From Candidatus Binataceae bacterium (GTDB lineage Bacteria; Desulfobacterota; Binatia; Binatales; Binataceae), in contig JBGPUE010000002.1 of the NCBI GenBank assembly GCA_041491005.1, forward strand, positions 17,218 through 81,217: 64,000 nt of DNA, in the 5' to 3' direction. The notes under the pieces are model-generated. The model had not been told where the DNA came from. It saw nothing but the letters and a program-made list of their open reading frames with translations, and made no database searches. The translations under genes were made by a program, and so were the position numbers. This document shows positions 2,473-53,906 of the stretch, piece by piece. Numbering within the stretch: position 1 is the stretch's first letter; the number at the start of each line of letters is the position of its first letter.

Positions 2473-3273
2473 TCACGCGACTGGAGCGGCTTCTGCTGGC
2501 GATCGCAGATTCAGCGCCGGTCGCAGCCCGATCCCATAGTCGGCTTCAAGGTCGTAACGGCGCCCGTGAAGGACGCCTTCACCGTTGGCGATCACGAGCT
2601 TGCGCGCTCGCACGTCTTCGATCCAGCGCGGATGCGACGCTTCGGCGCGCCGGTTCGCGATCGCGCGCAGGTGCGCTGGTTCATCAATGCCGACAGACAT
2701 CTGCGCGTAATCATGCTCGATGCGCCTCCGCACTGTCTCGCCGATGCCACCGTTCTGGACGCGGATATCGAACATCAACGCCACCGCCCGCTCGCTCATC
2801 ACGCCATGGGCGAGGGATAGCGCCCGCGCTGTCGCGAACATCCCGGCCGCATGCCGCAGTTGTATCGCTCGGAATTCCGGCGATCGTCCGAGTCCGGTGA
2901 ACATCACGCGCCAGGGCCCGGCGATCGCATGACGCGCATCCTGAATTGATCGCGCCCATCGCAGCTGCTGGGCGCGCGGCGCGGTGAGCATGTTTCTGAA
3001 TTCGGCGGCGCCCGCGCCGAAGATCTTGTCGACAAGCGCGGCATGGAGCGTGGCCATCTCGATTAGCAACTGCTGCAGGCTGCCCTCGCCCAGATTCCAC
3101 TGGCATGCACCCAAGCTTAGTCCTTGACCGTCGAAATCGCCGGCAATCCCGGCGAAGCAATCCGGCGGCGCAAATCCGGTCTCGAATGAACCCGTCAGCG
3201 CGAGGCAGCGCATCGCGAGATCGTCCGATCGGAGATCGACTACACCACGGGCACCCGTCGCGCCGGACGCCAT
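2473..3273 (-). CDS. hypothetical protein, possibly a lysozyme-like fold glycoside hydrolase (GH46 chitosanase-like pattern)
   Basis: 266-aa ORF with coding-like composition. The E...(18 aa)...D spacing and the GIAGDFDGQGLSLGACQWNLGEG segment recall GH46 N-terminal catalytic motifs. The family assignment is speculative. Confidence 0.35.
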   Translation of the reverse strand: MASGATGARGVVDLRSDDLAMRCLALTGSFETGFAPPDCFAGIAGDFDGQGLSLGACQWNLGEGSLQQLLIEMATLHAALVDKIFGAGAAEFRNMLTAPRAQQLRWARSIQDARHAIAGPWRVMFTGLGRSPEFRAIQLRHAAGMFATARALSLAHGVMSERAVALMFDIRVQNGGIGETVRRRIEHDYAQMSVGIDEPAHLRAIANRRAEASHPRWIEDVRARKLVIANGEGVLHGRRYDLEADYGIGLRPALNLRSPAEAAPVA

Positions 3274-4195: not shown

Positions 4196-4627
4196 ATGCT
4201 GCCGGCCGTGAATCGCATCTCATATCGCGCCAAGCCCGCGGCCTCCAACGCGGTCCTCAATGGCTTGTTCAAGGCGAGCTGGCCGAATCACCGGGCGCGC
4301 GACTTCCAGCCCATGCTGCGCCGTAGCCTCACTCATGTGTGCGCCTACGATGCGCGGCGGCTGGTCGGCTTCGTCAACGTGGCTTGGGATGGCGATAAGC
4401 ATGCGTTCCTGCTCGACACCACCGTGCATCCGTCGACACGTCGGTGCGGCATCGGCAGCGAACTCGTGCGTCGCGCGGCGGAGTTAACGAAGCAGGCCGG
4501 CGCCGAGTGGCTGCATGTGGACTTCGAAGCTGAGTTGACGCATTTCTATCGCGTGTGCGGCTTCCGCAGTACGAGAGCCGGGCTGATCCATTTGTCGGGA
4601 GCCGTCATCCAGCGGCGTGCGAAGTAG
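4196..4627 (+). CDS. GNAT family N-acetyltransferase
   Basis: 143 aa with a GNAT acetyl-CoA-binding motif (LLDTTVHPSTRRCGIGSELVRRAAELTKQAGAEWLHVDF). Confidence 0.7.
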   Translation: MLPAVNRISYRAKPAASNAVLNGLFKASWPNHRARDFQPMLRRSLTHVCAYDARRLVGFVNVAWDGDKHAFLLDTTVHPSTRRCGIGSELVRRAAELTKQAGAEWLHVDFEAELTHFYRVCGFRSTRAGLIHLSGAVIQRRAK

Positions 4628-5228
4628 TCGCTTGAGGCTGCCTCGCGATTTCTATGCGCGGCCAGTCCTGATCGTCGCGCGCGAGTGCATCGGCAAGGTT
4701 CTGGTTCATCGCACGCCCGAGGGTGAGGCGGCGGGGCGGATCGTCGAAGCCGAGGCCTATCGCGGCCCGCTGGATCGCGCCGCGCATAGCTGGCGCGGAT
4801 TGACGAAACGGACCGCAGCGATGTTCGGCCCGCCGGGATACGCCTACATTTACCTGCTCTATGGAACGAGCTGGGCCTTGAATCTGGTCGCCGCATCGGA
4901 AGGCGAGCCGCATGCGGTGTTGATTCGGGCACTGGAGCCGCTGCGCGGACTGGAATTGATGGCGCGGCGTCGAAGCAGGTTTGCCGATTCGCGCGATCTG
5001 ACAAATGGTCCGGGCAAGCTGACTCAAGCCCTCGCGATCACTGGCGCTGACTACGGCCGCGACTTATGCGGGGAGGAACTTTTCCTCGAAGAGCCGGAGC
5101 GTCCGGTCGGGAGGATAGGACGCTCGATGCGCATCAACGTGGAATCCGCCGGCCGCCCGTGGAATGAGAAGCCGTGGCGCTTCTACGAGCGCGCCAATCG
5201 ATACGTGTCGGTCCGCCCCCGCGATTGA
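4617..5228 (+). CDS. mpg: DNA-3-methyladenine glycosylase (Mpg/AAG family)
   Basis: 203 aa. N-terminus LPRDFYARPVLIVARECIGKVLVH and GPPGYAYIYLLYG are typical of Mpg. Its last 102 bp are repeated at 9538..9639. Confidence 0.8.
   Translation: MRSSRLRLPRDFYARPVLIVARECIGKVLVHRTPEGEAAGRIVEAEAYRGPLDRAAHSWRGLTKRTAAMFGPPGYAYIYLLYGTSWALNLVAASEGEPHAVLIRALEPLRGLELMARRRSRFADSRDLTNGPGKLTQALAITGADYGRDLCGEELFLEEPERPVGRIGRSMRINVESAGRPWNEKPWRFYERANRYVSVRPRD
5127..5228 (+). repeat. Direct repeat copy 1 (3' end of mpg), ~88% identical to 9538..9639
   Basis: atgcgcatcaacgtggaatccgccggccg...cgcgattga is found twice, encoding ...RINVESAGRPWNEKPWRFYERANRYVSVRPRD* here and ...RINVESAGRLWNEKPLRFYERANRYVSLHPRD* downstream. 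Confidence 0.9.
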
Positions 5229-5383
5229 TATCTGCCGCTATCCGACAGATATCCGTTGGACCCATGGCAAGTGATATTGAGCCTACGCCTTTTTAGTTCG
5301 CTAGATATAAGCTTTGAAAGGTTGACTTTCTCTTTTAGGCCGATAAGTTGCGTCTACGCTCGCCGATGCGCTGAATCACCTGA

Positions 5384-8300
5384 ATGGCGGCGAAGCCGGA
5401 AGTTCGAAGGGATATGACTGGTAACTCCACCGGAAAGGCAAGGATTCTCGCGGCGATTGGACTTACTATCGCCGCTTTGCAAATCGGTGGTTGCACCTCC
5501 AGCGACGAGCCGCAAACGAATACTGGCAATAGCGCGATCGCCGGTCTGTGTTCGGCCGCCTTCCAGCCAGCGGCGAGAGTCACGTCGGGACGTTCTCTCT
5601 TGGGAGTAAGGGGTGCCGCCGAGATTGTCGCGCCGGTTCCGCTTTCAGGATGTTCCAAGGACGCGAACAACAATGTGACGATCGGCTCCGGCGGTTGCGG
5701 GCCCAACGTCTACGTCGACCAGTCGTTCACCGGAAGCCAAAAATTGGGAAAGATAACCATCGCATCCGACGGCGGACTGGCTTTCCTCCACGATGGATCC
5801 TTCGACCTCGAAACGACCGGTATCGAAGTCAATGGCCTGCTATCGGTTGGGACTTCGACGTGCTCGGTCGGAAACGACAGCATCAACGACAAGATCACGA
5901 TCAGGTTTCTCGGGTCGAAGCCAACGTCAGGCACCGATCATAGCAAGGGAATCATCGTCAACAGCGGCGGCATCCTGCGGATGTTCGGCAGGAAGGGAGT
6001 GCCCGTCAATACGAAGCAGGTAGGCATCAGCTGGACGTACCTGGCGGATGCGGCGGGGCCGGCGACGCCCGGCGCGGGCAGCGCGCCAACCGGAACGACC
6101 GTCCTGCAATTGGCCGATCCAGTCGATTGGCAGCCTAACGATTGGATCGTCGTGGGAACCTCGACCTTCAGTCCGTTCGAAAGCGAGTTCGTGCAAATCC
6201 AGACCGTCACGCCCCGTCCCGCAACCACCAACTTGCCGGCGGGAAGCATGATCACCCTCAATCCAATAACGCCGCTGGTGCATTATCACTTCGGCGGACC
6301 CGCTCCCAGTGCAGGCGCGTCGAACCCGAATTGCAAAGACCACGATGACAAGCTGATTCCCGCGTCGTTCTGCGATGGTGCGGACAGGAACTACGGCGTG
6401 GACGAACGCGCCGAGGTCGGGCTTGTCACCCGCAGCGTCAAGCTGACCTCTGATACCTCCAGCAGCGCCCATTGGGGCGGCGAGATCATGGTCATGGCGG
6501 GTTTCAAGGAAGTATCGATCCAGGGGGTCGAAATCGAGAAATTCGGCAAAGACCAACTCGCCAGTTATCCAATCCACTTTCACAAGGCCGGCGCGCTGGT
6601 CAACCCTCCCGACGCGCCGATTGTCACGGTCAACGCGAACAGCGTTCATCACAGCTACAACAAATGCATGACCATTCATTCCACCAGCAACCTGACTATC
6701 CAGAACAACGTCTGTGCGCGGATCGTCGGGCATATCTTCTACGAGGAAATCGGCGACGAAGCTGGCATCAGCTTTCAGAATAACCTGGGCCTCGGCGCGA
6801 TGAGCCACTATTTCGGCTTGGCGCCCAGCGTTCCCCTCAATCCCGTTACCAACAAGCCCAAAGACTTTTGGGAGGGTGACTACCTCGGCAACAACATCGG
6901 TTACGACGGCTTCGGCATCCCCAACACCGATGACCAGACCAATCCGACACATAGCTCCTGCTACACGTCCAACGGGGCGGGTGGACTCGCCTTCGCGAAC
7001 CTGGTGCCCTGCACGGCGACCCAGTACTACGTAGAGCCCGCCAGCGGATTCTGGCTTGTCAACCCGAGCGCCGTGCTGCAGGGCAATTCGATTGGCGGAT
7101 GCCAGGGCGTCGGCGTCGGTTACTGGTATCTTCCACCATCAGACCCGCCGACGCCGGTGACAGTCCCGCCGACGCCTCCGATTTTGCATACCGAGAAGTT
7201 TCAGCCGGTTGGTTTGTTCAAGAACAACCGAGCCCACGCCTGCTACGACGGCATCTTTGGCGAGACCCAATTTGGCGTGAAGTCGGAGCAACTGCAGCCG
7301 CGCGTGGGCGGGGTCAACGCGGGGAAGTCGCTGATCGCCAGGTTTGACGGATTCACCTCGACGCGCAATCGCGACCGCGGCGTCTGGATGAGACCGGTCT
7401 GGTTTCTCTTCGAGAACGCCCGGCTGGCAACCAATCGCGACGATGTTTCGCTCTTGAGCTCAGGCGGAAATGACGGCAACGGCCCCGGCGTATGGGCGAT
7501 GCTCAAAGATTCGGTGCTGGTCGGACTGAGCCGCAACAATGTGGATCGCTTCGGGCCGTGCCCAGCCAACGCGGCACAGAGCTTCGGATGCGTAGACCAC
7601 AATCCGCAAGCAAACGACGAAGTTGAGAGAGGCTATCCCATCGCCCGTTGGAACATGGCGGGCTACTACATCTACGATGGCCCAGTCCGCATGTTTCACG
7701 ACCGCTTCGTCAACTTTAACAAGACCATCGCTCCGAGCTTGACGACGGCTGATCAAACGACGCTTGCGGGCTTCACTAACTATCCAAATGCCAACACCTC
7801 TGGACCATACGAGGGCGACGCCGCATTGGGATGGTTCCAGAACAATCAGAGCGCATATCCTACTGCGACCGTAGCCCGGGAACTGGTCTTCGAAAACGTC
7901 GATCTCCGGCATCAGATCTTCACAGAAAAGGTCAACTTCGGGAACTTCGATGACGGCGACAAGAACACCGCGATCCTTGATGAGGACGGTTCGCTGACCG
8001 GCTTCCAGGCTGTCAACAGCACCGGCGTGCAGGTGCCGACCCTGATTCCGATCTCGCTCAACAATCTTCCGTTCAACGCTTCGTCGAACTCGGTGGATGA
8101 GTGTCACGCCCAAGGCGGACAGGATGGCGCCCTCGAAGGTCGGCCGACTTCGCTGATCTCGCCTGGGAACATGGGAACGCTGGAATTTGGCGCGCTCTTT
8201 CCGGCCCGTGATACCATTCCGATCCCGCCCACGGATTCGACTCAGCTGATGACGTTTGCGAAAGACTCGACTGACTACGGCGCCCATCAGACGATGACCC

Positions 8301-9457
8301 TGCACAGCCGCAACGGCCAAGGCATCTGGGAACCCAAGGTAACCAGTGGCTTTGGCTATACGATCAGCGCGGCCCCGGCGCTCGACAAGAATATTTATCC
8401 AAACACCAGCGGCAAGGCGGGTATTCCGAACCTGGTTGATGTCGGCGTGGGTGACGTCGTGAAGCCCGGCATCAGCAAGGCCAATCCGTTCTACGTTCGT
8501 CTCGGCATCTGCTACACGAATCAGGACGGCAGCCATCCAGCGGCGGGACATTTCACTATCACACGCGGCTACAAGTCATACGGCGGCAATGCCGTAAATC
8601 AGAGCGACGCTGATCTTCAGCTGTTGTTCAACTACCTCGACCAGCGCTTCCAAGGGCAAACCTGCATCAATCTCGACGACGGCAACGCGCGCAATCTGGA
8701 CCCGAACAATCTCGGGAAAGGATGCCCGGCCAATGGCGTCACTGCCAAACCGACGGGAGGATGCCCGGCCGATTCAAGCGCAGGAACGGCCCAAGACAAC
8801 AACCCGGCCTGCATCTACTCGATCCAGTGCACCCAGGGCGATCCGAATTGCCCATGCCCGGGCGGGGGTAGCGCCTGCGGCCGCACGAGCGACGCGAGCA
8901 ATCCGATGCTTCCGATCGATGCCGCCAACACGATGACTCCCGCTGACGACATCAAGGAGTTGACCAATACCGACGGTACTTTCAAGAATCTCAACGCATT
9001 CTACTACGATCAAACCACCGGGATGCTTTTTTTCTACGTCACCCAGGATTCGCCCAATGCGTTTGGAGCGTCACCGCTGGGCAGCTGCAGTAATCCGCCC
9101 AATCCGGCGACCGATGATCCGGCTTGTCCAAATCTCAGTAAGGGGGAGAGTTACTATTCGTGCCCGAAGCAGGGCTGCACTACGTATATCGTGAAGCTCA
9201 ACGATTCGACCTACAATCCAGGACCGTCAAAGTGCCCGAGTACCGATCCGACTGCGATCTACGGCGTCAGCAGCGGCATATATGCTCAGCCTGTACCGCC
9301 GAATCAGAACAAGCTGGTGTATGTCGAGAACATCAGCAACGTCGTCACGCGGGTTCAGCCCGATCCGCAGGTATCAGGGCAGGGCTTCCAACATTCGGTG
9401 GCGGCAGCCAGTCCGGTCTGCCCCAACCCGACGCCGACCGCCACGCCTGGACCGTGA
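5384..9457 (+). CDS. Very large (1357 aa) lipoprotein with a G8-like domain plus parallel beta-helix (CEMIP/TMEM2/PKHD1-like), Pro/Thr linkers and Cys-rich C-terminal modules; putative secreted polysaccharide-active enzyme or adhesin
   Basis: Lipoprotein signal with lipobox (LAAIGLTIAALQIGGC). Residues ~100-210 look G8-like (ITIASDGGLAFLHDG...ITIRFLGSKP...IIVNSGGILRMFG). Beta-helix-type stretches follow (HHSYNKCMTIHSTSNLTIQNNVCARIVGHIFYEE). The C-terminus is Cys-rich (CPANGVTAKPTGGCPADS...CIYSIQCTQGDPNCPCPGGGSAC). GC and codon usage are lower than in flanking genes. Confidence 0.6.
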   Translation: MAAKPEVRRDMTGNSTGKARILAAIGLTIAALQIGGCTSSDEPQTNTGNSAIAGLCSAAFQPAARVTSGRSLLGVRGAAEIVAPVPLSGCSKDANNNVTIGSGGCGPNVYVDQSFTGSQKLGKITIASDGGLAFLHDGSFDLETTGIEVNGLLSVGTSTCSVGNDSINDKITIRFLGSKPTSGTDHSKGIIVNSGGILRMFGRKGVPVNTKQVGISWTYLADAAGPATPGAGSAPTGTTVLQLADPVDWQPNDWIVVGTSTFSPFESEFVQIQTVTPRPATTNLPAGSMITLNPITPLVHYHFGGPAPSAGASNPNCKDHDDKLIPASFCDGADRNYGVDERAEVGLVTRSVKLTSDTSSSAHWGGEIMVMAGFKEVSIQGVEIEKFGKDQLASYPIHFHKAGALVNPPDAPIVTVNANSVHHSYNKCMTIHSTSNLTIQNNVCARIVGHIFYEEIGDEAGISFQNNLGLGAMSHYFGLAPSVPLNPVTNKPKDFWEGDYLGNNIGYDGFGIPNTDDQTNPTHSSCYTSNGAGGLAFANLVPCTATQYYVEPASGFWLVNPSAVLQGNSIGGCQGVGVGYWYLPPSDPPTPVTVPPTPPILHTEKFQPVGLFKNNRAHACYDGIFGETQFGVKSEQLQPRVGGVNAGKSLIARFDGFTSTRNRDRGVWMRPVWFLFENARLATNRDDVSLLSSGGNDGNGPGVWAMLKDSVLVGLSRNNVDRFGPCPANAAQSFGCVDHNPQANDEVERGYPIARWNMAGYYIYDGPVRMFHDRFVNFNKTIAPSLTTADQTTLAGFTNYPNANTSGPYEGDAALGWFQNNQSAYPTATVARELVFENVDLRHQIFTEKVNFGNFDDGDKNTAILDEDGSLTGFQAVNSTGVQVPTLIPISLNNLPFNASSNSVDECHAQGGQDGALEGRPTSLISPGNMGTLEFGALFPARDTIPIPPTDSTQLMTFAKDSTDYGAHQTMTLHSRNGQGIWEPKVTSGFGYTISAAPALDKNIYPNTSGKAGIPNLVDVGVGDVVKPGISKANPFYVRLGICYTNQDGSHPAAGHFTITRGYKSYGGNAVNQSDADLQLLFNYLDQRFQGQTCINLDDGNARNLDPNNLGKGCPANGVTAKPTGGCPADSSAGTAQDNNPACIYSIQCTQGDPNCPCPGGGSACGRTSDASNPMLPIDAANTMTPADDIKELTNTDGTFKNLNAFYYDQTTGMLFFYVTQDSPNAFGASPLGSCSNPPNPATDDPACPNLSKGESYYSCPKQGCTTYIVKLNDSTYNPGPSKCPSTDPTAIYGVSSGIYAQPVPPNQNKLVYVENISNVVTRVQPDPQVSGQGFQHSVAAASPVCPNPTPTATPGP

Positions 9458-9503
9458 TGTCCGCCGGGATTCGAGCAGCGCTTCGCGTCGATTCCTTCCG
9501 TTC

Positions 9504-9531
9504 TGGTGGGCGGTGCAGGGATCGAACCTGC
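9504..9531 (-). repeat. 28-nt partial copy of the tRNA-Val 3' end (att-like remnant)
   Basis: tggtgggcggtgcagggatcgaacctgc is identical to the 3' 28 nt (including CCA) of the tRNA-Val at 10474..10548, in the same orientation, and diverges immediately afterwards. Confidence 0.8.
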
Positions 9532-9537
9532 AACTAC

Positions 9538-9639
9538 ATGCGTATCAACGTGGAATCCGCCGGCCGTCTGTGGAATGAGAAGCCGTTGCGCTTCTACGAA
9601 CGCGCCAATCGCTATGTCTCGCTCCACCCGCGCGATTGA
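9538..9639 (+). pseudogene. Displaced duplicate of the mpg 3' end (direct repeat copy 2); not an intact gene
   Basis: 102 bp ~88% identical to 5127..5228, encoding the last 33 codons of Mpg plus stop. The upstream frame is fused to an unrelated sequence (ORF 9160..9639 is chimeric). Confidence 0.8.
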
Positions 9640-9672
9640 TCGCCTTCTGAATAACGGCTCGAAGCTTCCCGC

Positions 9673-9692
9673 TGGTGGGAGGTGCAGGGGTC
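9673..9692 (-). repeat. Degenerate second partial copy of the tRNA-Val 3' end
   Basis: tggtgggaggtgcaggggtc matches tggtgggcggtgcagggatc at 18 of 20 positions, in the same orientation. Confidence 0.5.
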
Positions 9693-9733
9693 TAAAATGC
9701 GACCGGCCGAATCCCGGCCATCCAGGCGACCGA

Positions 9734-10159
9734 CTAACTCCGGCTGCGGGCCGACTGAAGTGAACCGGCGCGTGCTCGACGACCTCGGATCGTTCGAGGA
9801 CGACGGTTCGGGTGCCCGCCCGTTGCGCCCGCGCCAGCGGCCAGCAATGCCACAAGCTCCTGATTCAGAGAGACGCCGTCCACTGCGGCAAGGCGTGTAA
9901 GGCGTTCATGAAGGGAACGCGGGAGGCGCAGGCGTAGCTGGCCGGAATGCCCTGAAGTCACATCCGTAGGAGGGACAGCGGAGCCGTGGTGGCGCATCGA
10001 GGCGATGATGGCTCGGGCGGCAATTACTGCCTCACGGGTGGCCTCTTCAGGCCGGTGGCCATGGGCTGCGCATCCCGGCAGCGCGGGTACACGGGCGATA
10101 AAGGCATCATCCTCATCGCTCCACTCCACAACGACACGATATCCGAAAGTCTCTGCCAT
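9734..10159 (-). CDS. hicB: HicB family antitoxin (type II toxin-antitoxin)
   Basis: N-terminal HicB/UPF0150 fold (YRVVVEWSDEDDAFIARVPALPGCAAHGHRPEEATREAVIAARAIIASM) plus a C-terminal RHH-like DNA-binding segment (LRLPRSLHERLTRLAAVDGVSLNQELVALL). Overlaps the hicA stop (ATGA). Confidence 0.75.
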   Translation of the reverse strand: MAETFGYRVVVEWSDEDDAFIARVPALPGCAAHGHRPEEATREAVIAARAIIASMRHHGSAVPPTDVTSGHSGQLRLRLPRSLHERLTRLAAVDGVSLNQELVALLAAGAGATGGHPNRRPRTIRGRRARAGSLQSARSRS

Positions 10160-10416
10160 CAGTCTACCTTGAGTTCATAACTTTCGATGAGTCCCAAGAT
10201 TTGCCGGACCTGGTACGGCTTGGCTTTTCCCGATGCGCCCTCTTGAAGGTTGACAAGCGGCAGATCCGGCCGCGACGGATGCCGATAGATGCGGTGCGAC
10301 CCGCGTTTCCGGTCGAGCACATAGCCCAGATGCAACAGAAGTCCGCACAAGTCGCGAAAGCGGATGTTCGCTGGACTGCGTCGCGCCGTCTCGGCAAGCT
10401 CCGCCCATCGCCCCAC
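10159..10416 (-). CDS. hicA: HicA family mRNA interferase toxin (type II toxin-antitoxin)
   Basis: 85 aa in the YcfA/HicA family (RKRGSHRIYRHPSRPDLPLVNLQEGASGKAKPYQVRQILGLIE), sitting upstream of hicB. Confidence 0.8.
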   Translation of the reverse strand: MGRWAELAETARRSPANIRFRDLCGLLLHLGYVLDRKRGSHRIYRHPSRPDLPLVNLQEGASGKAKPYQVRQILGLIESYELKVD

Positions 10417-10473
10417 CAGCGAGACGATACCGCATATGGAACCACGGCACTAGCCCCGGAGCGGCTCGGCTCC

Positions 10474-10548
10474 TGGTGGGCGGTGCAGGGATCGAACCTG
10501 CGACCCTCGGTGTGTAAGACCGATGCTCTACCGCTGAGCTAACCGCCC
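10474..10548 (-). tRNA. tRNA-Val (anticodon UAC)
   Basis: The reverse complement is GGGCGGTTAGCTCAGCGGTAGAGCATCGGTCTTACACACCGAGGGTCGCAGGTTCGATCCCTGCACCGCCCACCA. It forms a canonical cloverleaf (7-bp acceptor, D and T arms) with a CTTACAC anticodon loop and an encoded CCA, 75 nt in total. Confidence 0.9.
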
Positions 10549-10673: not shown

Positions 10674-10976
10674 CTACGCGCTCTGCGCCGCCCCTACCAT
10701 TCCCTCGTTGAGCGTGTCCTTGAGCTGCTTGCCGGGCTTGAACTTGGCCGAACGGCTGGCGGAAATCTGGATCGCGGCGCCGGTCTTGGGATTGCGCCCG
10801 GTGCGCGGCTTGCGCGAGGAGACCGCGAAAGTGCCGAAGCCCGAGATGTTCACGCGGTCGCCAGCCTTCAGTGCCGCGGTGATGTCGTCGAGGATGATGT
10901 TGAGGGTCTTCTCGGCGTCGGTCTTGCTGACGCCAAGCTTGTTGGACAGGGCCTCGATCATGTCGGTCTTGGTCAT
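10674..10976 (-). CDS. hup: HU family DNA-binding protein
   Basis: MTKTDMIEALSNKLGVSKTDAEKTLNIILDDITAALKAGDRVNISGFGTFAVSSRKPRTGRNPKTGAAIQI is the HU/IHF signature. Start set at the MTKTD Met (the ORF-finder start further upstream is unlikely). Confidence 0.85.
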   Translation of the reverse strand: MTKTDMIEALSNKLGVSKTDAEKTLNIILDDITAALKAGDRVNISGFGTFAVSSRKPRTGRNPKTGAAIQISASRSAKFKPGKQLKDTLNEGMVGAAQSA

Positions 10977-11060
10977 CGAATCTCCCCCGATCCGTTGCTG
11001 AGGAACCGATGGGACGGCGCATCGCACCGCCCCGTCAGGCAGGCCTGGCGACGGCGCACC

Positions 11061-13553
<2,493 letters not shown>

Positions 13554-18650: not shown

Positions 18651-18783
18651 TGTCATTCTGAGCGGAGCGAAGGCATCGCCGGAGCGAAGTCGAAGAATCT
18701 ACGCGAAGCGATTTTCTGCCTGTCTGCGAACGGGTTCCAGGCAAATCGCTCCGCGTAGATCCTTCGCTGCGCTCAGGATGACA
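18651..18783. mobile_element. MITE/REP-like palindromic element (~133 bp) with imperfect ~40-bp terminal inverted repeats
   Basis: Left arm tgtcattctgagcggagcgaagg...gaagaatctacgcgaagcgatttt. Right arm aaatcgctccgcgtagatccttcgctgcgctcaggatgaca, which is its reverse complement apart from one ~21-bp indel. The same core recurs at 26256..26361 and 53808..53906. Confidence 0.6.
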
Positions 18784-25868: not shown

Positions 25869-26222
25869 TTGGCCGCTCGCCGCCATTCTGAGCCCTTCGA
25901 CTCCGTTCACGATAGACTGCGCGAAGAAAGCCCGGCGTGGGACGTGGAATACTACGTATACATAGTGAGCAGCCCGTCGCGCGCGCTATACACAGGCGTC
26001 ACGAACGACATCGTACGCCGAGTCGATGAGCATAGGCGTGGAGAGGGAAGCCGCTTCGCCAAAAGGTACCGGATCACTCGGCTCGTCTATGTTGAAGAGA
26101 CTGATAGCCTTGAGGCGGCGATCGCTCGAGAGAAGCAGCTCAAGGGCTGGGTTCGCACCAGAAAGATTAGGCTGATCGAATCCTTGAACCCAGAGTGGAA
26201 CGACCTCATCGAGCAGAGGTGA
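25869..26222 (+). CDS. GIY-YIG nuclease family protein (small, stand-alone)
   Basis: YYVYIVSSPSRALYTGVTNDIVRRVDEHRRGEG... matches the GIY-(x10)-YTG(V/I)T motif with downstream R and E. A MITE-like repeat sits immediately downstream. Confidence 0.7.
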   Translation: MAARRHSEPFDSVHDRLREESPAWDVEYYVYIVSSPSRALYTGVTNDIVRRVDEHRRGEGSRFAKRYRITRLVYVEETDSLEAAIAREKQLKGWVRTRKIRLIESLNPEWNDLIEQR

Positions 26223-30857: not shown

Positions 30858-33161
30858 ATGATCAACAAGTTGCGGTTGCTTAGGAACATTGGGCAGTTCG
30901 ACTCGGTCGATAGCGCTGCGACCATCGCGTTAAATTGACTCACCCTGATCTACGCAGAGAACGGGAGAGGAAAGACAACCCTCGCTGCCGTGCTCCGGTC
31001 GCTCGGGACCGGCGATCCGATTCCGATCATGGAACGACGCAGACTTGCGGCCCAGCGCGCTCCACACGTCGTCATCGAGTGCGATGGAGGACCGCCGTCT
31101 GCGATGTTCGAGAACGGTGTGTGGAACCGCACGTTACCGAACATGGTCGTGTTTGACGACCTATTTGTTGACCAGAACGTCTACTCGGGTTTGGCGGTCG
31201 GGGCAGAACACCGGCAGAACCTGCACGAGCTCATCCTAGGTGCCCAGGGCGTGACCCTCAACACGAAGCTTCAAGGGTTGGTCGAGCGCGTCGAGGAGCA
31301 TAACGCTGCGTTGAGGAACAAAGCGGCCGCCATACCTCCGGCAGAGCGCGGCGCGCTGTCAGTTGACGAGTTTTGCTTGCTCCCGCCACGGACGGACGTA
31401 GACGAAGCGATACAAGCTACCGAGCGCATGCTAGCGGCGGCGCGCGAACAAGCCCCAGTTCGGAACGCTTCCCTCTTCGACCCGCTGAGCCTTCCGGCTT
31501 TCGATGTCGCGGCCACTGACCGCGTCCTTCAGAAAGACTTGGCCACGCTCGATGCGGCGGCGGCGGCTCGCGTCCAAGCGCATGTGGCAGGACTGGGTCC
31601 AAGCGGTGAAACGTGGATTGCTGAAGGAATGCGCCGTCTCCCGCGGGCGGCTCCAGGCGCGGGAACGGCCATCTGCCCATTCTGCGGGCAGGATCTGGCC
31701 GGCGCGCCCCTTATTGCCCACTACCGGGCCTACTTTAGCGCTGGCTACGCCGACCTTAAGCGTAAGGTTTCGGAGGCTCTTGCAGAGATAAACCGCACGC
31801 ACGGGGCCGATGTGCCAGCGGCGTTTGAACGCTCGATCAGGGTGGCTGTGGAGCGGCGGCAGTTCTGGTCACGGTTCTGCGATGTACCCGACCTCGTCGT
31901 GGATACGGCCACGATTGTGCGCGATTGGCGCGCTGCCCGCGAGGCCGTCATCGCGGCGCTTACCTCGAAGCAGGCAGCGCCGCTGGAGCGCAAGACACTT
32001 GCGGCGGAGGGCCAGGCAGCGGTCGCGTTATACCACACTCATCGCGACAGGATTGCGGCTCTCAGCGGCGCGCTCGTGAAGACAAATGCTTCTATCCGAC
32101 TGGTCAAAGAGCAGGCGGCAGTGGCCAACCCGCAACTCATCGCTTACGATCTCTCTCGCCTCAAGGCGGTCAAGGCCCGCCACAGCCCAGGCATCGCAGC
32201 GCTTTGCGATGGCTATCTGGCGGAGAAGGCCGCCAAGGCGCAAACAGAGCAGCAACGGGACCAAACCCGAGCGGTGTTGGACCAGTACAGAATGAACGTG
32301 TTTCCGGGATACCAGACTGCGGTCAACCTTTATCTACAACGATTCAATGCGGGGTTTCGGCTCGACAGTGTGACTCCCGTCGACACTAGGGGAGGCCCGG
32401 CTTGCACGTACAACTTACTGATCAACGACATACCCATCGCCGTCGCGGGAGCGCCCCCTTCGCCTGGCGAGCCTTCATTCCGCAACACCCTGAGCTCGGG
32501 CGACCGCAATACACTTGCGCTCGCCTTCTTTTTCGCTTCCCTTGACCAAGATCCGGGACTCGCAAACAAAGTCGTTGTGATCGACGACCCGATCTCAAGC
32601 CTTGACGATCATCGCTCGCTAACCACCGTGCAGGAGATACGAGACCTCGCGAAACGCGCCGGCCAGGTCATCCTGCTCTCCCATAGTAAGCCGTTCCTAT
32701 GCCGCACTTGGGAGCGGGTCGATCCTTCGACCCGTACCGCGCTCCAGGTAGCCCGCGACAACCTTGGCTCGACCATTCGCTCCTGGGACGTGGACGAGGA
32801 CTGTATCACTGACCACGATCGGCGCCACGCCACTATGCGCGAGTACCTTGCCAATGGCATGCCGAACAATCGGGAAGTCGCCGGATCAATTCGCCCTCTG
32901 CTGGAAGCGTTTCTTCGCGTAGCTTGCCCGGAGCATTTTCTTCCAGTAACGAAGCTTGGACAATACCATGACCTGTGTAGGCAGCGCGTAGGCACGCCCC
33001 AGCAGATCCTCGATACGAGCGCGACTGCGGAACTAGGCAAACTGATCGAATACCCGAATAGATTTCATCACGACACGAACCAGGCGTGGGAGACCGAGAC
33101 TATCAATGAGACTGAGCTGGCAGGCTTCGTCCGGAGAGCAATGAGTTTCGCCAAACGGTGA
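30858..33161 (+). pseudogene. AAA_13/RloC-like Rad50-type ABC ATPase with CXXC zinc hook, disrupted by an in-frame TGA at 30936..30938 (possible anticodon-nuclease/abortive-infection type module)
   Basis: ATG at 30858 has a strong SD (ggggggag) and encodes MINKLRLLRNIGQFDSVDSAATIALN-TGA-LTLIYAENGRGKTT. This is the typical AAA_13 N-terminus with the stop sitting where a conserved residue (W or K) precedes the P-loop. Downstream: ~450 aa of coiled-coil-like sequence with a central CPFCGQ zinc hook, ABC signature (LSSGDRNTLALAFFFA), Walker B/D-loop (VVVIDDPISSLDD), H-loop (LLSHSKP) and a ~170-aa C-terminal domain. Lower GC3 than the host genes. Confidence 0.6.
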
Positions 33162-53706: not shown

Positions 53707-53807
53707 TGTGGTGCCCGCAAACAACTTGAATATGTCGGTCAAATCGCTTCGCGTAGATCCCTTCGGCAAGAGGAGTCTCAGGGCAGGCTCTTCGACACGG
53801 CTCGCGT

Positions 53808-53906
53808 CGCTCGCCGGCTCAGGATGACGAGAAGAAGGCTTTTTGTGTCATCCCGAGCGAGCCGAGCGTCCAGTGAGGCGACGAGGGATCGACGCGGAGC
53901 GATTCG
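53808..53906. repeat. Degenerate copy of the MITE/REP-like repeat (hairpin gctcaggatgac / gtcatcccgagc plus gacgcggagcgattcg)
   Basis: cgctcgccggctcaggatgac and gtcatcccgagcgagccgagcg form an inverted pair around a T-rich loop. The downstream gatcgacgcggagcgattcg matches the internal part of the 18651 element. Confidence 0.5.

What the first reader, a model, noticed from the sequence alone, without database searches (positions are those of the whole stretch)
5127..9639. 4.4-kb single-gene island (giant G8/beta-helix lipoprotein) bracketed by 102-bp direct repeats of the mpg 3' end
The last 102 bp of the 3-methyladenine glycosylase gene (5127..5228) reappear at 9538..9639 at ~88% identity, including the stop codon. 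The 4.3 kb between them holds only the promoter and ORF of a 1357-aa lipoprotein whose GC content and codon usage are visibly lower than the surrounding genes. This is the signature of an element that integrated into the 3' end of a protein-coding gene and regenerated that end from its own sequence. The 12% divergence between the two copies suggests the element brought its own version of the target rather than duplicating host sequence. No integrase/recombinase ORF is present inside the repeats, so either the machinery has been lost or it acts in trans.
Basis: seen in the sequence. Interest (0 to 1): 0.75.

Follow-up and report, generated by a model that had tools for sequence, protein, structure and literature searches.

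The report
Gene insertions at a tRNA-Val hotspot
The repeat is real and the giant lipoprotein gene is a lineage-specific insertion, but the second copy of the mpg gene end lies inside a decayed island at the neighbouring tRNA-Val gene, so this looks like ordinary tRNA-hotspot turnover, not a new element that targets mpg.

Summary
Window 5127-5229 recurs at 9538-9640 (103 nt, 89%), with no other copy in the window, and several independent assemblies reproduce the arrangement.

- T1 (9503-9534) sits 3 nt before the second mpg copy (B2).
- T2 (9672-9704) is degenerate.
- T3 lies in the intact tRNA-Val (10474-10548).

The layout is mpg(A-B1) | giant G8 lipoprotein | T1 | B2 | 32 bp | T2 | HicBA | tRNA-Val | hupB-lon.

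One related contig (L085) is an empty site: mpg, a 191-bp spacer, tRNA-Val and hupB, with no giant gene and no HicBA. A sister lineage carries a tyrosine-integrase island at the same tRNA-Val.

B2 is a decayed pseudogene fragment of a roughly 10%-diverged mpg allele.

Best reading (about 0.5): B2, the 32-bp gap and T2 are a piece of a related donor's chromosome. A tRNA-Val integrative element captured it by imprecise excision and delivered it here, leaving a 938-bp remnant bounded by T1 and T3. The giant gene was inserted separately into the mpg/tRNA-Val spacer.

Available relatives cannot separate the two. This is an ordinary kind of locus, new only as an instance in Binataceae.

The parts
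4617..5228 (+). mpg (3-methyladenine / methylpurine DNA glycosylase), intact
   Evidence: Pfam PF02245, E = 1.9e-61. 96% aa identical to lineage 2 and 88% to the empty-site lineage.
5127..5229 (+). B1: last 34 codons of mpg including the stop, plus 1 nt; first copy of the repeat
   Evidence: Its peptide matches all relatives at the conserved PW..KPWRFYER..RYVSVRPRD residues.
5230..5413 (+). AT-richer upstream region of the giant gene
   Evidence: Unrelated to the L085 spacer and to the 32-bp gap. Holds no tRNA relic and no consensus promoter. About 16% diverged from lineage 2.
5414..9457 (+). Giant G8 / CEMIP-type beta-helix lipoprotein gene (ORF opens at 5384; likely start 5414, after GAAGGGA)
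   Evidence: Pfam G8 and CEMIP_beta-hel. The only solved relative by sequence is the TMEM2 hyaluronidase 8c6i. The only close homologue in the protein database is its own cluster (P0001, 100%); next best 54-56%. Near-identical DNA copies occur in sister-lineage contigs. Absent from L085.
9458..9502 (.). 45-nt spacer between the giant stop codon and T1; holds a fragment of a palindromic repeat (about 9479-9497)
   Evidence: A 19-nt match (p about 0.0007) to the palindromic repeat in the L085 mpg/tRNA-Val spacer.
9503..9534 (-). T1: relic of the tRNA-Val 3' end (T-arm, acceptor 3' strand, CCA, plus 1 nt)
   Evidence: 29 nt exact, 31/32 overall, to 10473-10504. The T-arm dyad is intact.
9535..9537 (.). 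TAC: 3-nt joint between T1 and B2, of unknown origin
   Evidence: Matches neither the tRNA nor mpg at that position.
9538..9640 (+). B2: decayed copy of the mpg 3' end (pseudogene fragment)
   Evidence: 11 differences from B1, 10 from lineage-2 B1, 16 from L085. Its 4 amino-acid changes (P>L, W>L, V>L, R>H) are unique and hit residues invariant in all relatives.
9457..9639 (+). 60-codon ORF running from the giant stop codon (TGATG overlap) through T1 into B2
   Evidence: Called as a gene in the JGI and Logan contigs. No evidence that it is functional.
9641..9671 (.). Short spacer between the B2 stop and T2
   Evidence: No significant similarity to the sequence after B1, to the T1 or T3 flanks, or to the L085 spacer (by eye).
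9672..9704 (-). T2: older, degenerate relic of the tRNA-Val 3' end; the T-loop and one T-stem strand are mutated
   Evidence: 81% identity to T1 over 32 nt; 5 mismatches in 33 against the intact tRNA end, T3 (counted on the copy in the 99.95%-identical L122 contig).
9734..10159 (-). hicB antitoxin
   Evidence: Pfam HicB and HicB_lk_antitox. Relatives at 63-79% aa sit in unrelated contexts.
10159..10416 (-). hicA toxin
   Evidence: Pfam HicA_toxin.
10474..10548 (-). Intact tRNA-Val(tac); its 3' 32 nt (10473-10504) is T3
   Evidence: ARAGORN; repeat family D2.
10674..13553 (-). hupB (10674-10976) and lon (11061-13553), part of the core tig-clpP-clpX-lon-hupB cluster on the right flank
   Evidence: Pfam. 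96-97% nt identical in lineage 2 and 86% in L085, up to the tRNA 3' end.

Best explanation
The interval between the convergent mpg and tRNA-Val genes is an integration hotspot driven by the tRNA-Val 3' end.

In the ancestor of this clade, mpg was followed after a short spacer by tRNA-Val-hupB-lon. Two separate things then happened in the window's lineage.

1. **The giant gene arrived.** The 4.3-kb giant G8/beta-helix lipoprotein gene was acquired horizontally. It replaced most of the spacer, ending 45 nt from the tRNA 3' end. How it got in is not shown.
2. **A composite segment arrived (9535-10472).** It recombined into the tRNA-Val T-arm region. This left the host's old tRNA 3' end as relic T1 and supplied a new one, T3. 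The segment carries:
   - the last 102 nt of an mpg gene (B2);
   - a 32-bp spacer;
   - an older dead tRNA-Val relic (T2);
   - a HicBA toxin-antitoxin pair.

B2, the spacer and T2 are read as a contiguous piece of a related donor's chromosome, in which mpg also neighboured tRNA-Val. A tRNA-Val integrative element would have picked it up when it excised imprecisely, because its outer att site T2 was already dead. This resembles specialised transduction. The integrase module was later lost, and HicBA stabilises what remains.

On this reading, the mpg-end repeat bracketing the giant gene is a by-product of the neighbouring island, not the giant gene's own attachment sites.

**Shown:** the anatomy, the empty site, the decay of B2, and integrase use of this tRNA in a sister lineage.

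**Inferred:** the donor origin of B2, the imprecise excision, and the order of events.
For: - T1 and T3 are 31/32 identical and bound 9535-10472. T1 starts at the first base of the T-stem, and T2 ends within 4 nt of the same tRNA position. This is expected if both mark the identity block of T-arm att sites.
- T2 (5 of 33 differences from T3) is much more decayed than T1 (1/32), although T2 lies nearer the tRNA. That contradicts simple stepwise accretion. It fits T2 arriving as an old internal relic inside one imported unit.
- The order of units fits. Under tRNA-directed integration, imported DNA always lies between the host's relic and the tRNA. The unit next to the mpg body (B1-giant-T1) is then the host's, and B2-gap-T2 is imported.
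- T1's 45-nt flank holds a 19-nt match (p about 0.0007) to the palindromic repeat in the L085 mpg/tRNA-Val spacer. T1 with its flank therefore looks like the clade's native tRNA downstream region.
- L085 shows mpg and tRNA-Val as direct neighbours, so a donor from this clade would supply exactly mpg-end, spacer and tRNA-end.
- B2 is about 10% from every known allele and keeps an outgroup state at position 75. Seven of its 11 differences from B1 are third-position (P = 0.039). Its four amino-acid replacements are unique and hit invariant residues. This fits a foreign allele that was functional and then decayed.
- Lineage 2 (L123, L126, L127) carries a tyrosine recombinase, an excisionase-family HTH protein and an AAA_25 protein directly at the same tRNA-Val 3' end.
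- A phage contig (L121) has this exact tRNA-Val 3' sequence as a fragment next to its integrase gene.
- Capture of flanking DNA by imprecise excision at tRNA islands has been proposed for tycheposons (10.1101/2020.12.28.424599).
Against: - No integrase lies in 9535-10472 or anywhere in the window.
- No donor genome with mpg(B2-type)-gap-T2-HicBA was found.
- No relative with giant-T-tRNA-Val and without B2/HicBA was found. Lineage 2 has lost the giant 3' part and everything up to its own island.
- The T1|B2 joint has 3-6 nt of unexplained filler. That suggests an illegitimate rather than a site-specific joint.
- How the giant gene entered is left unexplained. No tRNA relic lies between mpg and the giant gene.
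- HicBA relatives elsewhere are not next to tRNA-Val or mpg.
Confidence: 0.5

Rival explanations
1. A segment made of an mpg 3' end, the giant gene and T1 entered as a circle. It recombined at the left edge of the 102-bp block inside the resident mpg, supplying a new gene end (B1) and displacing the original one (B2). B2 still sits in front of its native 32-bp spacer and the tRNA-Val relic T2. The recombinase acted in trans or has been lost.
For: - B1 and B2 bracket the giant gene, and the block ends exactly at the stop codon.
- An empty site lacking the giant gene exists.
- B2-gap-T2 reads as an uninterrupted mpg-end/tRNA-end locus.
- B2 is decayed and B1 is intact, as expected for a displaced original end.
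- Divergence between the copies fits an element bringing its own version.
Against: - The supposed element carries no recombinase or any other mobility gene.
- It does not explain why a tRNA-Val T-arm-to-3'-end fragment, with a flank resembling the native tRNA flank, lies at the element's end 3 nt from the joint.
- The circle would have to be cut out of a donor chromosome between mpg and an intact tRNA-Val, for which no mechanism is known.
- At 89% identity with a longest identical run of 23 nt, the repeat is unlike the usual near-identical att cores.
- The one recombinase seen at this locus in a relative sits directly at the tRNA-Val 3' end, not in mpg.
Confidence: 0.2
2. B2-gap-T2-HicBA came from a related strain as naked or transduced chromosomal DNA, with no integrase involved. 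One end was anchored by homologous recombination in tRNA-Val/hupB/lon. The other end was joined illegitimately at T1|B2 (homology-facilitated illegitimate recombination).
For: - The T1|B2 joint has 3-6 nt of filler, typical of illegitimate joints.
- These lineages exchange short homologous patches frequently. L087 carries three lineage-2-type patches, and mpg 4680-5027 is a roughly 14% diverged patch.
- No integrase is present.
Against: The breakpoint would have to fall by chance at the first base of the T-stem, within 4 nt of where relic T2 also ends. It would also have to duplicate the 32-nt tRNA end rather than replace it.
Confidence: 0.15
3. In-situ tandem duplication of the interval from the mpg 3' end to the tRNA-Val 3' end. 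This would be followed by loss of the giant gene from the second copy, decay, and a later HicBA insertion at the tRNA.
For: The two units, B1-giant-T1 and B2-gap-T2, lie head to tail with only 3 nt between them.
Against: - Seven of 11 differences are third-position (P = 0.039). Four or fewer replacements out of 11 is improbable under decay of one copy (P about 0.07, using an assumed 63% nonsynonymous share that I estimated by hand).
- B2 keeps an outgroup state where the window, lineage 2 and L085 all share a derived one.
- The 32-bp gap shows no similarity to either end of the giant region.
Confidence: 0.1
4. Assembly artefact: strain variants joined in a metagenome-assembled genome.
For: The source is an uncultured Binataceae population with co-occurring strains.
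Against: The same junctions recur at 99.9-100% identity in NCBI, JGI and three Logan assemblies from different samples.
Confidence: 0.02

Closest known systems
tRNA-gene genomic islands with accretion and remnants, and cargo capture by imprecise excision (tycheposon islands of Prochlorococcus, 10.1101/2020.12.28.424599; specialised transduction by lambda, from general knowledge)
   Same: - Partial tRNA 3' ends in direct repeat bound the inserted DNA.
- Degraded remnants without an integrase sit next to the tRNA.
- Different islands occupy the same tRNA in sister lineages.
- Flanking donor DNA is proposed to ride along after imprecise excision.
   Different: - Here the captured flank is recognisable as the 3' end of the very gene that also neighbours the tRNA in the recipient. 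This creates a gene-end repeat around an unrelated resident gene.
- No integrase is left.
- No excision has been shown.
- The phylum (Binatota) is new for this kind of locus.
Integrative elements that target the 3' end of a protein-coding gene and restore it (for example SGI1 at trmE/thdF, PMC2297512; guaA-targeting islands, from my own knowledge)
   Same: Direct repeats of a gene's 3' end flank an insertion, the gene stays intact, and the displaced end lies distal.
   Different: - Those elements encode their own tyrosine integrase and have short, nearly identical att cores.
- Here there is no recombinase, the repeat is 102 nt at 89%, and a tRNA att relic sits at the joint.
tRNA gene fragments left by integrative elements (PMC9897764, title and abstract only)
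   Same: T1 and T2 are partial, non-functional tRNA 3' pieces of the kind that paper describes.
   Different: None in kind. ARAGORN correctly did not call them as genes here.
HicAB type II toxin-antitoxin modules on island remnants (general knowledge)
   Same: Adjacent, overlapping hicA and hicB genes with the matching Pfam domains.
   Different: Activity was not tested. The closest relatives (63-79% aa) are in unrelated contexts.

Membership tests
tRNA-targeting integrative island (tyrosine integrase; att = tRNA 3' end) | Direct repeats of the tRNA 3' end bound the inserted DNA, one of them inside an intact tRNA gene | tested here: met
   T1 (9503-9534) and T3 (10473-10504) are 31/32 identical. 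T2 is a third, degenerate copy.
tRNA-targeting integrative island (tyrosine integrase; att = tRNA 3' end) | An integrase gene inside the island, usually next to the tRNA | tested here: not met
   Nothing in 9535-10472 or in the window. It is present at the same tRNA in lineage 2 (L123 4017-4880, Pfam Phage_integrase). The window therefore holds at most a remnant.
tRNA-targeting integrative island (tyrosine integrase; att = tRNA 3' end) | Related genomes have the unoccupied tRNA site | tested here: met
   L085 has mpg, a 191-bp spacer, tRNA-Val and hupB. This rests on a single spanning contig.
tRNA-targeting integrative island (tyrosine integrase; att = tRNA 3' end) | Excision to a circle and a restored empty junction | not testable with these tools
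   Needs PCR or reads. No contig with a T1 x T3 product was seen among the look-ups.
   B1 and B2 are 103 nt at 89%; mpg is intact.
   Only the giant ORF lies between the repeats.
   None of about 57 Binataceae mpg loci has a second mpg end, the giant gene or tRNA-Val nearby. One of the closest giant homologues checked (P0002, 54% identical) sits in an unrelated context.
   L085 continues into tRNA-Val as predicted, but by eye its spacer is unrelated to the 32-bp gap. The lineage is only 84-86% identical.
HicAB type II toxin-antitoxin | Adjacent genes with HicA_toxin and HicB antitoxin domains | tested here: met
   PF07927, PF05534 and PF15919 score above their cut-offs; the genes overlap by 1 nt.
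G8 / CEMIP-type beta-helix proteins | A G8 domain followed by a CEMIP beta-helix | tested here: met
   PF10162 (35.7 bits) and PF24606 (143.7 bits). The only PDB relative by sequence is TMEM2 (8c6i), E = 1.5e-29. Enzymatic activity was not tested.

The most novel reading that the evidence does not exclude
The giant lipoprotein gene, with its own copy of the mpg 3' end, is a minimal single-gene cassette without a recombinase. It inserts into the last 34 codons of mpg and rebuilds them, and it is mobilised in trans, for instance by the tRNA-Val integrases seen in sister strains acting on the T1 site at its end. That would be a cargo-only integrative element using a protein-coding target and a long (102-nt), diverged restoring segment.
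Probability: 0.15. Interest if true: 0.55.

Novelty: new member of a known kind. Interest (0 to 1): 0.3.

Why it matters
- **A caution for scanning.** A gene-end direct repeat around an insertion is not by itself proof that the enclosed DNA integrated there. Here a neighbouring tRNA island remnant probably supplied the second copy.
- **A documented hotspot.** The locus is a compact example, in the uncultured phylum Binatota, of a tRNA-Val hotspot in three states within one clade: empty, giant gene plus toxin-antitoxin remnant, and giant gene plus integrase island.
- **A possible footprint of flank capture.** If the capture reading is right, the 166-nt B2-gap-T2 piece is a rare physical trace of a genomic island carrying donor chromosome flank into a new host.
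- **Nothing in it opens a long-standing question.**

Tried and rejected
- **Synteny in species representatives.** I checked 57 Binataceae mpg loci. None has tRNA-Val, lon, the giant gene or HicBA within 10 kb. They are too distant to show empty or filled sites.
- **Metagenome scans.** A scan with the giant C-terminus found nothing. A protein search with the same piece found no close fragments. So what follows the giant gene in lineage 2 came only from the hupB look-up, and there it is deleted.
- **HicB relatives.** In metagenomes and viral contigs they are 63-79% identical and in unrelated contexts, with no donor locus.
- **A chimeric mpg.** I tested whether the mpg body goes with B2 and B1 is foreign. 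dS for mpg between the window and lineage 2 is 0.36 against 0.03-0.10 in the flanks. However, the diverged patch is 4680-5027 and ends 100 nt before B1. The four clustered L087 differences at 5096-5128 are one of three lineage-2-type recombination patches. This is an ordinary mosaic and does not discriminate between the models.
- **A tRNA relic between mpg and the giant gene.** This would have made the giant gene the cargo of an older tRNA-Val island. None was found.
- **Homology beyond the repeats.** I compared the sequence after B1 with the gap, and the T flanks with each other. Nothing was significant.
- **Integrases.** tblastn of the window with the L123 and L121 integrases found nothing. 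A viral scan with the L123 integrase found nothing.
- **Promoter scan upstream of the giant gene.** It found nothing.


Full report
**1. The observation**

Window 5127-5229 and 9538-9640 form a 103-nt direct repeat at 89% identity. Over the last 102 nt of mpg, stop codon included, there are 11 mismatches. The left edge is sharp. The right edge lies one base past the TGA. Local alignments with shuffling find nothing significant beyond either edge. No further copy exists in the 64-kb window.

mpg (4617-5228) is a full-length Pur_DNA_glyco protein. The only credible gene between the repeats is the giant ORF. It has G8 and CEMIP beta-helix domains. It has an IGGC lipobox if translation starts at 5414, which follows a GAAGGGA ribosome-binding-like motif. 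Public annotations call it at 1285 or 1357 aa.

The composition claim is only partly right. The region is 58.7% GC against 63.6% for the window. The gene's GC3 (0.73) equals that of mpg. The low value is in GC1 (0.55), which reflects amino-acid composition.

The arrangement is not an assembly artefact. A JGI 181-kb contig (L122, 99.95%), L125, and three Logan contigs from separate runs (L090, L092, L093, 100%) carry the same junctions.

**2.

The intact tRNA-Val(tac) lies at 10474-10548 on the minus strand. Its 3' end occurs three times:
- T3, in the gene itself (10473-10504).
- T1, at 9503-9534. It is 29 nt exact and 31/32 overall, and it begins at the first base of the T-stem.
- T2, at 9672-9704. 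It has 5 differences in 33 from T3. Its T-loop and one stem strand are mutated.

T1 ends 3 nt before B2. T2 starts 32 nt after the B2 stop codon. Between T2 and the tRNA lie hicB and hicA.

The layout is therefore: mpg body, B1, giant, 45 nt, T1, TAC, B2, 32 nt, T2, HicBA, tRNA-Val, hupB, lon, clpX, clpP, tig. In other words, two units of the form "mpg end ... tRNA-Val end" lie head to tail. One contains the giant gene and the other contains only 32 nt.

**3. Relatives**

The organism is an uncultured Binataceae. The best species-representative mpg is 81% aa identical. None of about 57 Binataceae mpg loci shares the neighbourhood.

Closer sequences came from the protein database and the contig look-ups.

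(a) *The empty site.* L085 (ENA, 1358 bp; mpg 88% aa) holds the GNAT gene end, mpg, a 191-bp spacer, tRNA-Val(tac) and the hupB end. It is 84% nt identical to the window on the left and 86% on the right. It has no giant gene and no HicBA. It shows that mpg and tRNA-Val were direct neighbours in this clade. It rests on one spanning contig; L086 confirms only the left part.

(b) *Lineage 2.* This is L082, L088, L089 and L094 on the left and L123, L126 and L127 on the right. L088 and L123 overlap by 77 nt at 100% identity.
- It has mpg followed by the giant gene at the same place.
- The giant gene breaks off at window position 7530.
- There it is fused to a 4-kb island encoding an AAA_25 protein, an excisionase-family HTH protein and a 287-aa tyrosine recombinase. 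The recombinase gene lies near the tRNA-Val 3' end, after a 59-aa ORF.
- The giant 3' part, T1, B2, T2 and HicBA are all missing there. This lineage therefore cannot tell which came first.

(c) *Giant homologues.* Beyond its own cluster, the giant protein's best hits are 54-56% identical. Where the assemblies are named, they come from other phyla. Named Binataceae hits are about 45%.

(d) *A phage precedent.* Phage contig L121 carries this exact tRNA-Val 3' sequence as a fragment directly after its integrase gene. So this sequence is used as an attachment site.

**4. The nature of B2**

B2 differs from the window's B1 at 11 positions, from lineage-2 B1 at 10, and from L085 at 16.
- Its four amino-acid changes (P>L, W>L, V>L, R>H) are unique to it. 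They hit residues invariant in every relative examined, so it is a dead fragment.
- Seven of the 11 differences are at third codon positions (P = 0.039).
- At position 75 it keeps the state of distant outgroups, where the window, lineage 2 and L085 share a derived base.

B2 is therefore best read as the end of a separate mpg allele of the same clade, about 10% diverged. It was functional for most of that divergence and decayed afterwards. This argues against a plain local duplication. It does not say which copy is foreign.

**5. Which unit is foreign?**

Two mirror-image histories fit the anatomy.

*The alternative.* B2-gap-T2-HicBA entered the tRNA-Val of a chromosome that read mpg-B1-giant-tRNA.

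I favour the alternative for these reasons:
- T1 and T3 are a near-perfect pair of tRNA 3' repeats with an intact T-arm dyad. They bound exactly the segment that contains B2. That is the standard signature of integration at a tRNA.
- T1 and T2 end within 4 nt of the same tRNA position. This is expected for att identity blocks and would be a coincidence for a random break.
- T2 is far more decayed than T1 although it is nearer the tRNA. Stepwise accretion cannot explain that. A composite import carrying an old internal relic can.
- With tRNA-directed integration, the imported DNA lies between the host relic and the tRNA. The unit next to the mpg body is then the host's.
- T1's 45-nt flank contains a significant match (p about 0.0007) to the palindromic repeat in the L085 mpg/tRNA-Val spacer. 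T1 and its flank therefore look native.
- The only recombinase seen at this locus in any relative sits at the tRNA-Val.

A mechanism for the alternative already has precedent. Imprecise excision of an integrated element that captures donor flank has been proposed for tRNA islands in Prochlorococcus. It is classical for lambda (general knowledge). The dead outer site T2 gives a reason why excision in the donor would have been imprecise.

**6. Weaknesses**

- No integrase remains.
- The T1|B2 joint has 3-6 nt of filler. That suggests illegitimate joining and keeps a recombinase-free import alive as a variant.
- No donor genome and no giant-tRNA-Val intermediate was found.
- The entry route of the giant gene stays unknown. 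No tRNA relic lies between mpg and the giant gene.
- An apparent clue that the mpg body might belong with B2 dissolved on inspection. dS for mpg between the window and lineage 2 is 0.36 against 0.03-0.10 in the flanks. However, the diverged patch is 4680-5027 and ends 100 nt before B1. Similar patches occur elsewhere. The cluster of L087 differences at 5096-5128 is one of three lineage-2-type conversion patches.

I therefore put about 0.5 on the capture model.

**7. Comparison with known systems, and verdict**

As a tRNA-Val island remnant, the locus meets the repeat and empty-site criteria. It fails the integrase criterion, so it is a remnant rather than an active member.

As an element that targets a gene's 3' end, like SGI1 at trmE, it meets only the repeat criterion. 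It has no recombinase, the repeat is long and diverged, and the element does not recur elsewhere.

The giant protein belongs to the G8/CEMIP-type beta-helix family. Its only solved relative by sequence is the TMEM2 hyaluronidase. It is probably a surface glycan-binding or glycan-cleaving lipoprotein; this was not tested.

Overall the finding is real and correctly located. Its interpretation is partly right: there was an insertion, and one repeat copy is foreign. The bracketing repeat most likely belongs to the adjacent tRNA-Val island. This is a new instance of a known kind of locus and is of modest interest.

Noticed in passing
window 18680-18777; partial copies near 53740-53765 and 53882-53904; L085 814-913; L086 698-743: A palindromic repeat of about 100 nt that folds into a long hairpin as single-stranded DNA (-32.6 kcal/mol, z = -4.25). 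It looks like a MITE or REP-type dispersed element. One copy sits in the mpg/tRNA-Val spacer of the empty-site lineage, and a 19-nt fragment sits next to T1 in the window.
   Followed up: partly
L123 3753-7797 (also L126, L127): The sister lineage has a 4-kb island at the same tRNA-Val. It encodes a 59-aa ORF, a 287-aa tyrosine recombinase, a 212-aa protein, an excisionase-family HTH protein, a 182-aa protein and an AAA_25 protein. Its far end is fused to the giant gene at window position 7530. This truncates the gene to about 743 codons and removes any distal att relic.
   Followed up: partly
L091 1-75 (Logan SRR35969133): A variant contig joins an internal 40-nt tRNA-Val fragment (D-arm to variable loop) directly to the middle of hicA at window position 10249. 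The fragment carries the L085-type base in the anticodon stem. The region 10250-10499 is missing. This may be another rearrangement at this hotspot.
   Followed up: no
window 9457-9639: A 60-codon ORF starts at an ATG that overlaps the giant gene's stop codon (TGATG). It reads through the tRNA relic T1 into the B2 mpg fragment. JGI and Logan annotations call it a gene, but it is probably not functional.
   Followed up: no
window 4680-5027, 5233-5510, 3109-3187; L087 4153-4262, 5096-5128, 5923-5943: Divergence between co-occurring strains is strongly patchy, at 14-16% within patches against 2-4% outside. L087 carries three short lineage-2-type patches. This indicates frequent short-tract homologous recombination in this Binataceae population.
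   Followed up: partly
window 25869-26222 and 30990-33161: A small GIY-YIG domain protein and a 723-aa AAA_13/SMC-like ATPase lie in a stretch of lower GC3. This may be defence-related or mobile content, and it is unrelated to the finding.
   Followed up: no
L003, L008 and other Binataceae mpg loci: In many other Binataceae, mpg sits about 0.8 kb downstream of tRNA-Gly(ccc) or is directly followed by tRNA-Arg(tcg). So mpg tends to lie next to tRNA genes in this family, but next to different ones.
   Followed up: no
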